Positions 34,078-35,726 of a stretch of DNA of 64,000 nt are shown piece after piece. A program made the position numbers. Origin of the DNA: Octopus sinensis (taxonomy: Eukaryota); the NCBI RefSeq assembly GCF_006345805.1, contig NC_043003.1, positions 82,274,001 to 82,338,000 of the forward strand, given 5' to 3'. The number at the start of each line of letters is the position of its first letter. Within the stretch, counting starts at the first letter, position 1.

Positions 34078-35677
34078 GTACATGGATATATATTTATATA
34101 CTTATATCCATATATAAACGAAATGTTAGCAGCCTCGAACTTTAGAAATAACAATCTTTAAACGACGAGGGTTATAATTATATATTTTGTGGAACACATA
34201 ATACAAATAGGGCATACAGACATTTAAAATAAAAATAAGGTTTTTTTATGGTTTCTGCGAAATATATGCGTATAAGAATATATATATATATATATAGTAT
34301 TATATATATATATATATCGTTCGTTTATTTACCGTACACTTATATATATACATATTTGTGTGTGCGTGTGTGTGTATACATATATTATCTATCCATCAGT
34401 TTATCATGAGTTAAATACGCAAATTACGAGAGAAAAATAGGACAAGTAATACAAAGTACAACGCTTAATCGGTTGTCGGCTGTCTATCTACTCTCCATTT
34501 CGAGCAATCAATATATAGCTATAAACATTTCACTAAAGCTGCAAAATAATCACAGAACTGTTAGGCAGAGTTCCACGCTTCCCTTCCTCGGACTGTCCGA
34601 CGAACGGGTACGCGAAATTTTGAGTAAGAGTTTTGCGATAATTTTGTAGCTTTAATAAAAAGCATTTTACTCTACCCCGGGTATTCGCATACTATTTTTT
34701 CCACCTAGATTTGCTCTTATGTGCTCATCTGTGTATGTATATATATATAATATATATATATATATATACATACATGCACACAACACGCGCACACGCACAT
34801 ACACACCCACACATTATACATATTATATATATATATATAAACAAGAGGGGGTAGTAATATTATTTACTACCAGGTGCCCAGCACAAAGACGATTAGTCAT
34901 AAGACAAAAAATTATTCATATAGAAAAATATTATTCATGTAGTTATACAATTAAGGGCTCCTAAATAAAGATGCCGAGTGCTGGGAACACAAAATGGGGA
35001 TGAATTATCGAGAGTGAAAATCAAAAACGTTTACCGATAACTTTAACAACTCGTACCGCGGTTTCTGCTTCTTTCTAGCAAAAACGAATATGTTTGCTAA
35101 GGCCAGCTTCATCAGCGAGTCGCCTGAATTTAATCGAGGTGTGCAGCGATGTGGGACTATGTGTTAAATCCGACTACTAGCAGATCCTAACTTTTCAAAT
35201 CTCTGCGCAGACGCAAAATTTACACGGGCATGCCGGGAATAATTTTACGAATAAATTCATCATGTAGTATGCGAATATAAACAAGAGGGGTAGTAATATT
35301 ATTTACTACCAGGTGCCCGCACAAAAGACGAATTAGTCATAAGACAAAATATTATTCATATAGAAAAATATATTCATGTAGTTATACAATTAAGGGCTCC
35401 TAAATAAAGATGCCGAGTGCTGGGAACACAAAAAGGGGATGAATTTATCGAGAGTGAAAATCAAAAACGTTTACCGATAACTTTAACAACTCGTACGCGG
35501 TTTCTGCTTCTTTCTAGCAAAACACAGAATAGGTTTGCTAAGGCCAGCTTCATCAGCGAGTCGCCTGAAGAAAGAAGCAGAAGAAACCGCGGTACGAGTT
35601 GTTAAGTTATAGGTTAAACGTTTTTGATTTTCACTCTCGATAAATTCATCCCCTTTTTTGTTACCCAGCACTCGGCA

Positions 35678-35726
<49 letters not shown>

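What the first reader, a model, noticed from the sequence alone, without database searches (positions are those of the whole stretch)
34839..35681. Retrozyme-like tandem: two hammerheads 440 nt apart that would excise a unit-length RNA
Seen: about 1.65 copies of a 440-nt non-coding unit, each with a canonical-core minus-strand hammerhead. Predicted cuts at 35494/35493 and 35054/35053 release exactly 440 nt. A third, inverted 3'-half copy caps one end and (TA)n flanks both. Established: non-LTR retrozymes are tandem HHR repeats that yield monomeric circular RNAs, and the palindromic stem III loop (ACCGCGGT) suits dimeric cleavage. Inference: this is an integrated rolling reverse transcript of a circular RNA and possibly a current source of one.
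Basis: partly seen in the sequence, partly recalled or inferred. Interest (0 to 1): 0.85.

Follow-up and report, generated by a model that had tools for sequence, protein, structure and literature searches.

The report
Decayed hammerhead retrozyme, Penelope-type insertion
A small non-coding mobile element carrying self-cutting hammerhead RNA motifs sits in a TA repeat as one and two-thirds copies plus an inverted stub, the way Penelope-like retrotransposons insert; it belongs to a known, common class and is probably no longer active.

Summary
The minus strand of 34840-35569 carries 1.66 copies of a ~440-nt non-coding unit. An inverted 112-nt arm (35570-35681) lies head-to-head with it, and (TA)n lies on both sides. 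Both full hammerhead motifs have every conserved core base. The predicted cuts (35054|35053, 35494|35493) are 440 nt apart. A hammerhead descriptor finds 5 motifs at 3 loci in the window, against a mean of 0.027 per shuffled window.

Corrections:
- The upstream ribozyme has lost one G, so its helix III is no longer palindromic.
- Helix II is long and interrupted, with an A/A mismatch at its base.
- Rfam's hammerhead models give no hit even at E<=10.
- The hammerhead fold is 5 kcal/mol above the free minimum.
- The 440-nt circle is no more structured than shuffles (z -0.76).

Partial tandem, inverted 5'-truncated arm and microsatellite target together are the published insertion signature of Penelope-like elements (PLEs). 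I read the locus as an old PLE-mobilised non-LTR retrozyme insertion, copied from a more-than-unit-length RNA. Whether that RNA was circular or multimeric cannot be told. Current activity is unsupported. It is a new member of a known kind, of modest interest. Other genomic copies could not be examined.

The parts
34820..34839 (.). Left (TA)n flank, one half of the split target microsatellite
   Evidence: The last 5 nt (34835-34839) are also homologous to the unit, so the element's 3' boundary is ambiguous by 5 nt.
34840..35569 (-). Sense array: 1.66 head-to-tail copies of the ~440-nt non-coding unit. The RNA 3' side is at 34840 and the 5'-truncated end at 35569.
   Evidence: 95.99% over 299 columns, spacing 440. 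4 of 4 stop-to-stop ORFs overlapping the locus gave 0 Pfam families.
35054..35493 (-). Unit-length monomer between the two predicted cleavage sites (440 nt, GC 0.38)
   Evidence: As a circle: MFE -91.0 against a shuffle mean of -87.1, z -0.76; 22 of 100 shuffles were as stable.
35045..35124 (-). Downstream hammerhead. Stem I 9 bp; CUGAUGA 35115-35109; helix II 35108-35066 (43 nt); GAAA 35065-35062; helix III ACCGCGGU (palindrome); cut after A17, 35054|35053.
35485..35565 (-). Upstream hammerhead. Same core; helix II 45 nt; helix III ACCGCGU (one G lost, palindrome broken); cut 35494|35493.
35570..35681 (+). Inverted, 5'-truncated arm, head-to-head with the array. It carries only the 3' half of a hammerhead (GAAA from 35583, A17 at 35594) with an intact palindrome and an extra GAA. 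It ends 87 nt past the cleavage site.
   Evidence: (I1, I2)
35682..35832 (.). Right flank: (TA)n 35682-35734, then (GA)n and (GATA)n
34850..34871 (-). Perfect 8-bp hairpin (6-nt loop) 10 nt inside the array's 3' end. A second copy lies at 35289-35310.
   Evidence: read (D8); also seen in the circular fold. Any role in the start of reverse transcription is inference.
34892..34942 (.). Internal 19-nt tandem (2.7 copies) within the unit; second copy at 35332-35381

Best explanation
The locus is one old insertion of a ~440-nt non-coding, hammerhead-bearing retroelement. It is a non-LTR retrozyme, that is, a non-autonomous passenger of Penelope-like elements (PLEs).

Proposed mechanism.
1. A PLE reverse transcriptase/GIY-YIG endonuclease cut an AT-rich (TA)n microsatellite on both strands.
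2. Each exposed 3'-OH primed reverse transcription at an internal site of a retrozyme RNA that was longer than one unit, either an uncleaved multimer or a circle.
3. The left end copied 730 nt (1.66 units). The right end copied 112 nt.
4. The two cDNAs met head-to-head.

The ribozyme is a type-I hammerhead with a 2-bp helix III closed by a palindromic tetraloop. It should therefore cut mainly when two copies pair in a multimeric transcript.

Shown: the anatomy, the orientation of both arms (RNA 3' ends pointing outward into (TA)n), the complete core, and the dimer-capable helix III.
Inferred: the enzyme, the twin priming in a single event, and self-cleavage itself.

The copy is now decayed and is probably not a source of 440-nt circles.
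For: Anatomy and statistics.
- Tandem, inverted arm and flanks.
- Hammerhead descriptor: 5 hits at 3 loci against a mean of 0.027 per shuffled window; 6 of 300 shuffles had any hit. All 5 hits lie in tandem or inverted repeats next to TA-rich microsatellites.

Orientation. In the array the + strand running rightward from 34840 is antisense. In the arm the minus strand running leftward from 35681 is antisense. This is what priming from the two 3'-OH ends of a double-strand break gives (sequence reading).

Literature.
- PLE insertions are 5'-truncated partial tandems, often with an inverted 5'-truncated copy adjacent at the 5' end. Insertion is biased to microsatellites, (TA)n for Naiads (PMC8557442 passages).
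- A purified PLE protein cleaves and extends both DNA strands, prefers AT-rich DNA and starts reverse transcription internally, 111-118 nt into an ORF whose hammerhead cut lies at +26 (PMC11167929 main text). That is 85-92 nt past the cut. The inverted arm here ends 87 nt past its cut.
- Metazoan retrozymes are non-coding, low-GC tandem repeats with a type-I hammerhead (PMC7229834 Results and Discussion). [quoted passage not shown]
- 'Dual min-HHRs ~100-700 bp apart on opposite strands' are reported for PLE-derived motifs (PMC4209133).

Dimer.
- Two downstream motifs cofold at -55.9 against 2 x -23.9 kcal/mol, with an 8-bp intermolecular helix III.
- The MFE of the 540-nt tandem transcript pairs 35501-35496 with 35055-35060.
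Against: - No Rfam hammerhead model matches: nothing at gathering score over the whole window, and nothing at E<=10 on 1301 nt or on 111 nt.
- Helix II is atypical. There is an A/A mismatch at 10.1/11.1 instead of the conserved G-C, then 3 bp, a large internal loop and an 8-bp hairpin.
- The hammerhead fold scores -18.9 against a free MFE of -23.9 kcal/mol. The competing fold pairs G12-A14.
- The circular monomer is not unusually structured (z -0.76), unlike published retrozyme circles.
- Only one locus was available, so covariation, copy number and attachment to coding PLEs are untested.
- The inverted arm is more diverged (91%) than the tandem copies are from each other (96%). This could mean two separate insertions, or a later DNA-level duplication, rather than one twin-primed event.
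- A PLE protein remnant in the window could not be confirmed by any library.
Confidence: 0.7

Rival explanations
1. One reading: the locus is an integrated rolling-circle reverse transcript of a circular RNA and is still transcribed. The two ribozymes cut out a 440-nt RNA, which is ligated into a circle.
For: - Two consecutive units each carry a complete hammerhead core 440 nt apart. This meets the operational definition of an 'active' retrozyme used in bioRxiv 10.64898/2026.07.22.740005 (passage).
- The predicted tandem transcript forms the inter-ribozyme helix III.
- Retrozyme circles are abundant in many invertebrates (PMC7229834).
Against: - The upstream motif lost a G, so its U16.1 is unpaired in the predicted dimer.
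- The copies are 4-9% diverged.
- The hammerhead fold is 5 kcal/mol worse than a competitor.
- The circle is not more structured than shuffles.
- This is a solitary 1.66-mer.
- A circular template cannot be told from an uncleaved multimer. In vitro, unprocessed RNA was the dominant PLE substrate.
Confidence: 0.1
2. The piece is the terminal (pLTR-side) fragment of a 5'-truncated autonomous PLE. It was later duplicated in place by unequal crossing-over or slippage, so the 440-nt period is a DNA-level event and not a property of the RNA template.
For: - This route from PLE termini to retrozyme-like tandems is proposed in the Discussion of bioRxiv 10.64898/2026.07.22.740005.
- The tandem copies are closer to each other (96%) than to the inverted arm (91%).
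- Severe 5' truncation is the rule for PLEs.
Against: - The unit has no ORF remnant: 0 Pfam families in 4 of 4 ORFs over the locus.
- A second, unrelated family in the window (50492-51224) shows the same more-than-unit-length layout. This is easier to explain by the copying mechanism than by two independent local duplications.
Confidence: 0.12
3. It is a satellite or foldback DNA with a chance hammerhead-like string. The inverted repeat would make it a hairpin-RNA or MITE-like element instead.
For: - The inverted arms (89 nt, 88% complementary) draw sub-threshold matches to miRNA-precursor models, for example MIR821 at 55 bits against a gathering score of 249.
- No Rfam hammerhead hit.
Against: - Core plus 9-bp stem I plus a palindromic helix III occurred in about 1 of 300 shuffled windows (mean 0.0033).
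- All hammerhead-descriptor hits in the window sit in the same kind of repeat architecture.
- The miRNA-type matches are far below gathering scores and follow simply from any long inverted repeat.
Confidence: 0.03

Closest known systems
Metazoan non-LTR retrozymes (Cervera & de la Pena 2020, PMC7229834; Results parts 1-2 and Discussion read)
   Same: - Non-coding, low-GC head-to-tail repeats of a few hundred bp, each with a type-I hammerhead.
- A weak helix III with a palindromic loop that calls for dimeric cleavage.
- A mismatch at the base of helix II, also described there for axolotl HHR_Amex2 (U/U).
   Different: - The unit is 440 nt, above the 170-400 nt range of that paper, though inside the 51-972 bp range of the 2026 preprint.
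- Helix II is a 43-45-nt interrupted helix.
- The predicted circle is not highly self-paired.
- Only 1.66 copies are present.
- Expression is unknown.
- The main text of that paper has 0 occurrences of 'inverted' or 'microsatellite', so this insertion layout is not described there.
Minimal hammerheads in the pseudo-LTRs of Penelope-like elements (Cervera & De la Pena 2014, PMC4209133; parts 1-2 of 4 read)
   Same: - Palindromic 15.2-16.2 / loop 3.
- Longer-than-usual helix II.
- An extra nucleotide after A9.
- Motifs on opposite strands 100-700 bp apart.
- Mostly solitary, truncated copies.
- Low activity expected for monomers.
   Different: - Those motifs keep G10.1-C11.1 and have a helix I of 4-5 bp. 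Here 10.1/11.1 is A/A and stem I is 9 bp.
- No RT/EN ORF lies between the repeats.
PLE insertion architecture (Craig et al. 2021, PMC8557442, passages; Frangieh et al. 2024, PMC11167929, main text)
   Same: - Partial tandem.
- Inverted 5'-truncated copy at the 5' end.
- AT-rich / (TA)n target, so no readable target-site duplication.
- Reverse transcription starting at internal sites; one arm ends 87 nt past the ribozyme cut, against 85-92 nt in the anole element.
   Different: - No ORF is present.
- The two 3' ends differ by about 130 nt rather than by a 30-40-bp 'tail'.
[quoted passage not shown]
Naiad PLEs flagged 'HHR_half_core' (Craig et al. 2021, supplementary file S1, passages seen)
   Same: - (TA)n target, listed for 5 of 5 cephalopod Naiads.
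- The two halves of the catalytic core are 35-50 nt apart (43-45 nt here).
   Different: - Naiads are reported to lack canonical hammerheads. Here stems I and III are complete.
- No sequence link could be tested: a 15-mer of this ribozyme has 0 occurrences in the stored file, in which long letter runs are cut.
- The host organism of the window is not established.

Membership tests
Hammerhead ribozyme, type I | Conserved core: C3 U4 G5 A6 N7 G8 A9, G12 A13 A14, A15.1-U16.1, H17 not G | tested here: met
   Both full motifs read CUGAUGA ... GAAA ... U-A. The inverted arm keeps only the GAAA...UA half.
Hammerhead ribozyme, type I | Helix I flanking the core and the cleavage site, open at helix I | tested here: met
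   9 bp (6 Watson-Crick, 3 G-U) in both copies, and it extends further in the MFE.
Hammerhead ribozyme, type I | Helix II closing on a G10.1-C11.1 pair | tested here: not met
   10.1/11.1 is A/A. Then come 3 bp (GCU/AGC), an internal loop and an 8-bp hairpin, 43-45 nt in all. A base mismatch (U/U) is known in axolotl HHR_Amex2.
Hammerhead ribozyme, type I | Helix III, or a palindromic loop 3 that allows a dimeric helix III | tested here: met
   The downstream motif has ACCGCGGU, which forms an 8-bp intermolecular helix in the cofold. The upstream motif has ACCGCGU, which forms 6 bp with its partner and leaves U16.1 unpaired.
Hammerhead ribozyme, type I | Match to curated covariance models (Rfam hammerhead families) | tested here: not met
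   No hammerhead hit at gathering score or at E<=10. The models did give weak Hammerhead_3 hits (17.5-18.3 bits, E 0.12-0.2) at the short-helix-II motifs of 13160-13296. The miss here therefore probably reflects the long helix II.
Hammerhead ribozyme, type I | Covariation supporting the three helices | not testable with these tools
   There are only 2.25 copies, and no changes fall in the stems. A genome-contig scan gave 0 matches.
Hammerhead ribozyme, type I | Self-cleavage at H17 | not testable with these tools
   This needs in vitro transcription. The prediction is unfavourable for the monomer: the hammerhead fold is -18.9 against an MFE of -23.9 kcal/mol.
Metazoan non-LTR retrozyme | Head-to-tail repeats of a few hundred bp with a type-I hammerhead in consecutive units | tested here: met
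   Two consecutive motifs 440 nt apart.
Metazoan non-LTR retrozyme | Non-coding, GC below 50% | tested here: met
   GC is 0.38. 4 of 4 ORFs over the locus have no Pfam family.
Metazoan non-LTR retrozyme | No LTR, PBS or PPT | not tested
   No terminal direct repeats other than the tandem itself appear in the repeat scans. PBS and PPT were not searched for.
Metazoan non-LTR retrozyme | Monomer predicted to form a stable, highly self-paired circle | tested here: not met
   z is -0.76; 22 of 100 shuffles were as stable. By contrast, the unrelated 562-nt unit at 50496-51057 gives z -5.6 (0 of 100).
Metazoan non-LTR retrozyme | Expressed as linear and circular unit-length RNA | not testable with these tools
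   No transcriptome data were available.
Metazoan non-LTR retrozyme | Coexistence with autonomous PLEs in the same genome | tested here: inconclusive
   RT-like and GIY-YIG-like reading-frame scraps lie at 1006-1781. The 60-aa piece has 40 relatives at E<=0.001, and a neighbouring piece is collinear with one of them. None of Pfam, the PDB profile search, the fold search or the Atlas names the family. The PLE label rests on recall.
Penelope-like element (autonomous) | ORF with telomerase-like RT and GIY-YIG endonuclease between the pseudo-LTRs | tested here: not met
   The 440-nt unit has no such ORF. The locus is therefore not filed as a PLE, only as inserted in the PLE manner.
PLE-type insertion architecture | 5'-truncated partial tandem, plus an inverted 5'-truncated copy at the 5' end, in a microsatellite or AT-rich target | tested here: met
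   compared with the description in PMC8557442.
PLE-type insertion architecture | Optional 30-40-bp 'tail' at one end | tested here: inconclusive
   The two 3' ends lie 87 nt and 214-219 nt past a cleavage site. With one locus, no tail can be defined.

The most novel reading that the evidence does not exclude
The long, interrupted helix II may mark a distinct, switchable hammerhead subclass carried by (TA)n-targeting PLEs. It has four positions at its base, then an internal loop where loop 2 normally sits, then an extension hairpin. It occurs in two sequence-unrelated families in this window, is invisible to Rfam's models, and in the finding's element can refold so that G12-A14 are hidden.

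If the 440-nt unit derives from a Naiad-type element, then the 'HHR_half_core' strings reported in Naiads would be real ribozymes. Those strings have their core halves 35-50 nt apart, and Naiads are said to lack canonical hammerheads. The locus would also be genomic evidence that retrozymes are inserted by the two-strand cleavage-and-extension reaction so far seen only in vitro.
Probability: 0.13. Interest if true: 0.55.

Novelty: new member of a known kind. Interest (0 to 1): 0.3.

Why it matters
This is a clean, fully resolved example of how a non-coding hammerhead element enters a genome. Both arms point their RNA 3' ends outward into a split (TA)n repeat, and each arm crosses a ribozyme cleavage site. 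That layout links retrozymes to PLE machinery by insertion structure, a different line of evidence from the co-occurrence and sequence similarity used so far. The main texts of the two retrozyme papers I searched do not mention inverted arms or microsatellite targets.

The window also shows that such motifs are dense in this genome, with three families in 64 kb. Standard covariance models miss the ones with long helix II, which matters for annotation. Beyond that, the finding is an ordinary member of a class known to occur in thousands of copies in many invertebrates and lower vertebrates.

Tried and rejected
- Rfam: the whole window at gathering score gave 0 matches. At E<=10, the 1301-nt and 111-nt stretches gave no hammerhead. 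The miRNA-like hits are far below gathering scores and come from the inverted repeats.
- Second locus, Rfam at E<=10: no hammerhead.
- Coding content: 224 of the 368 stop-to-stop ORFs >=55 aa were kept after a composition filter and scanned against Pfam. Nothing was above the curated cut-offs, and the 9 rows at E<=0.01 are scattered chance-level hits.
- ARAGORN: 0 tRNA genes.
- Other copies: a 22-nt exact pattern in genome contigs (bacteria and archaea only) gave 0 matches. A 15-mer gave 0 papers in full text and 0 occurrences in supplementary file S1 of PMC8557442.
- PLE protein remnant at 1006-1781. Results were: the search for homologous proteins none; Pfam 0 relevant families; Atlas only unnamed eukaryotic clusters, with GIY-YIG on 17% of one cluster at 0.86, a lead only; HMMER 40 unnamed short relatives; PDB profile 0. 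The AlphaFold model was of low confidence (pLDDT 68, pTM 0.30) and the Foldseek hits were meaningless (best E 3.2). This stays a lead.
- Similarity between the 440-nt and 562-nt units: Smith-Waterman score 23 against a shuffle mean of 16.6; 6 of 200 mononucleotide shuffles were as high, over AT-rich sequence. I rejected this as evidence of kinship.
- Microhomology at the head-to-head junction: at most 1-3 nt, so not claimed.
- Host organism: not established. A cephalopod is only my recollection of SINE-like sequence.
- Human origin: nothing suggests it.
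Full report
WHAT IS THERE

The sense strand of the element is the minus strand. From 35569 down to 34840 run 730 nt, that is 1.66 head-to-tail copies of a ~440-nt unit. The overlapping parts are 95.99% identical over 299 aligned columns at a spacing of 440.

Directly abutting the array's 5' end, on the + strand, lies a 112-nt inverted copy (35570-35681). It is 91.2% identical over 114 columns. The two pieces are head-to-head, so both RNA 3' ends point outward.

Outside them lie (TA)n runs: 34820-34839 on the left, and 35682-35734 on the right, the latter followed by (GA)n and (GATA)n. 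The element therefore splits a compound microsatellite, and no target-site duplication can be read.

The unit has no convincing ORF: 4 of 4 ORFs over the locus gave no Pfam family. Its GC content is 0.38. There is no second copy of the unit in the 64-kb window.

THE RIBOZYME MOTIFS

Both full motifs have every conserved hammerhead position:
- CUGAUGA at 35115-35109 and 35556-35550.
- GAAA at 35065-62 and 35504-01.
- The A15.1/U16.1 pair, and A17 at 35054 and 35494.
- A 9-bp stem I on either side.

Three points qualify 'canonical'.
1. The upstream motif has lost one G. Its helix III reads ACCGCGU, not the palindrome ACCGCGGU that is kept by the downstream motif and by the inverted half-motif.
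2. Helix II is 43-45 nt long. It has an A/A mismatch where G10.1-C11.1 is expected, then three pairs, a large internal loop and an 8-bp hairpin.
3. No Rfam hammerhead model matches. There was nothing at gathering score over the window, and nothing at E<=10 on 1301 nt or 111 nt.

The models are not blind in this window. They give weak Hammerhead_3 hits (17.5-18.3 bits, E 0.12-0.2) at another motif with a short helix II. The miss here is therefore most simply due to the long helix II.

IS IT CHANCE?

No.
- A loose pattern gives 5 matches against a mean of 0.27; 0 of 100 shuffles reached 5.
- A structural descriptor (core, stem I >=5 bp, first pair of helix III) gives 3 hits. 13 of 300 dinucleotide-shuffled windows had any hit and none had two.
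- A second descriptor also asks for a helix II base and allows longer helix III loops. It gives 5 hits at 3 loci. 6 of 300 shuffles had any hit and 1 had two or more.

FOLDING

Monomer. The hammerhead conformation of the downstream motif scores -18.9 kcal/mol. The free minimum is -23.9, and in it a hairpin pairs G12-A14. Four short GCU/AGC-type segments can pair 1-4 with 2-3 (active fold) or 1-2 with 3-4 (inactive fold). This is read from the folds.

Dimer. Two downstream motifs cofold at -55.9 against 2 x -23.9 kcal/mol, with an 8-bp intermolecular helix III. In the MFE of the 540-nt tandem transcript, the two helix III strands pair over 6 bp (35501-35496 with 35055-35060). The upstream U16.1 is left unpaired because of the deletion. 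So the dimer idea is supported in silico. In its present state the locus should cut poorly at the upstream site (inference).

Circle. The 440-nt circle is not more stable than shuffles: z -0.76, with 22 of 100 shuffles as stable.

WHY THE LAYOUT POINTS TO PENELOPE-LIKE ELEMENTS

Craig et al. 2021 (PMC8557442, passages) describe PLE insertions as:
- strongly 5'-truncated;
- organised in partial tandems;
- biased toward microsatellites, (TA)n for Naiads.

Frangieh et al. 2024 (PMC11167929, main text) show that a purified PLE protein:
- cleaves and extends both DNA strands;
- prefers AT-rich DNA;
- starts reverse transcription at internal RNA sites 111-118 nt into an ORF whose hammerhead cut is at +26, that is 85-92 nt past the cut.

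Here the + strand rightward from 34840 and the minus strand leftward from 35681 are both antisense to the element RNA. This is what priming from the two 3'-OH ends of one break gives.

The inverted arm ends 87 nt past its cleavage site. The array ends 214-219 nt past one, at a UAUAU that matches the target. Each arm crosses at least one cleavage site. The template was therefore an uncleaved multimer or a religated circle, and the sequence cannot tell which. In vitro, unprocessed RNA was the main substrate.

CLASS

Metazoan non-LTR retrozymes are non-coding, low-GC tandem repeats with type-I hammerheads. Many have a weak palindromic helix III that works in dimers, and one axolotl type has a mismatch at the base of helix II (PMC7229834). 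[quoted passage not shown] PLE-derived minimal hammerheads often occur on opposite strands 100-700 bp apart (PMC4209133).

The locus fits this class. It fails three tests: G10.1-C11.1, the Rfam models, and a highly self-paired circle. I file it as retrozyme-like and inserted in the PLE manner, not as a PLE, because it has no ORF.

SUPPORT FROM THE REST OF THE WINDOW

Two further hammerhead loci, unrelated in sequence, show the same habits.

Locus 50492-51224 (+ strand):
- It holds 1.3 copies of a 562-nt unit; 166 nt are repeated at 97% identity.
- It lies between TA/GATA repeats.
- It has one hammerhead at 50969-51031: stem I 6 bp, CUGACGA, helix II of 4 bp plus a 3x3 loop plus 5 bp, and helix III of 3 bp plus a tetraloop.
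- Its helix II is the same in the free and the constrained fold.
- Its circular monomer is strongly structured: z -5.6, 0 of 100 shuffles.

Locus 13160-13296:
- It is a 137-nt, 99% palindrome. Each arm is a short hammerhead ending 23 nt past the cut, next to (TA)n.

In all three families, helix II has four positions and then a loop. In two of them the loop is internal and the helix continues.

At 1006-1781 there are frame scraps that I recognise from memory as the RT N-terminus and GIY-YIG tail of a canonical PLE, again head-to-head. They have 40 unnamed relatives, but no library confirmed the family.

RIVALS

- A still-active source of circles is unlikely, for the reasons given above, but it is untested.
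- A PLE terminal fragment duplicated later at the DNA level (a model) would explain why the tandem copies are closer to each other than to the inverted arm. It needs independent duplications at two loci.
- Two nested insertions instead of one twin-primed event cannot be excluded.
- Chance or a foldback satellite is excluded by the shuffles.

LIMITS

- Only bacterial and archaeal genomes could be scanned, with 0 matches.
- Copy number, covariation, attachment to coding PLEs and expression therefore remain unchecked.
- The host organism is not established. Nothing suggests a human origin.

VERDICT

This is a new member of a known kind, of modest interest.

Noticed in passing
window 50492-51224 (+): A second, sequence-unrelated hammerhead element. 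It holds 1.3 copies of a 562-nt unit between TA/GATA microsatellites. One well-formed type-I hammerhead lies at 50969-51031 (cut 51025|51026). The sense-strand circular fold has z -5.6 (0 of 100 shuffles). There is no Rfam hit at E<=10.
   Followed up: yes
window 13160-13296: A 137-nt, 99% palindrome. Each arm is a short hammerhead (cores at 13235 on + and 13221 on -; cuts 13273|13274 and 13183|13182), abutting (TA)n at 13297. Rfam gives only weak Hammerhead_3 hits (17.5-18.3 bits) and many sub-threshold miRNA-precursor hits caused by the hairpin.
   Followed up: partly
window 1006-1781: Head-to-head reading-frame scraps that look, from memory, like the RT N-terminus (minus strand, 1290-1006) and the GIY-YIG endonuclease tail (+ strand, 1300-1781, with 4 stops) of a canonical Penelope-like element. 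They have 40 unnamed relatives at E<=0.001, but neither Pfam, the PDB nor the fold search confirmed the family.
   Followed up: partly
window ~300-900 (-): Mariner/Tc1-like transposase debris with several stops, seen by eye in the translation. It apparently interrupts the PLE-like copy.
   Followed up: no
window 46593-48111: A 592-nt-period tandem (46716-47946, 98.8% identity over 642 nt), punctuated by (AAT)n. It is preceded by a tRNA-like head (~46600-46683), which recurs at 1797-1929 (83%). It is followed by a 216-nt inverted repeat (47899-48111). No hammerhead-descriptor hit lies there, and ARAGORN finds no tRNA.
   Followed up: partly
window 62037-62800; 22943-23132; 9541-9684: Further long inverted repeats (788 nt at 86%, 192 nt at 82%, 148 nt at 84%) of unknown nature.
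   Followed up: no
window 34840-35569 and 50492-51224: The two more-than-unit-length arrays are almost the same length (730 and 733 nt) although their units differ (440 and 562 nt). This may be coincidence or a limit of the copying reaction.
   Followed up: no
window 35066-35108 and 35505-35549 (-): Helix II of the finding's ribozyme can adopt two mutually exclusive pairings. The more stable one hides G12-A14, which could be a switch or could simply be decay.
   Followed up: partly
whole window: GC is 25-39% per 2-kb block. The window is very rich in (TA)n, (CA)n, (GA)n, (GATA)n and (AAT)n runs. CTGANGA occurs 41 times against 17.9 expected.
   Followed up: no
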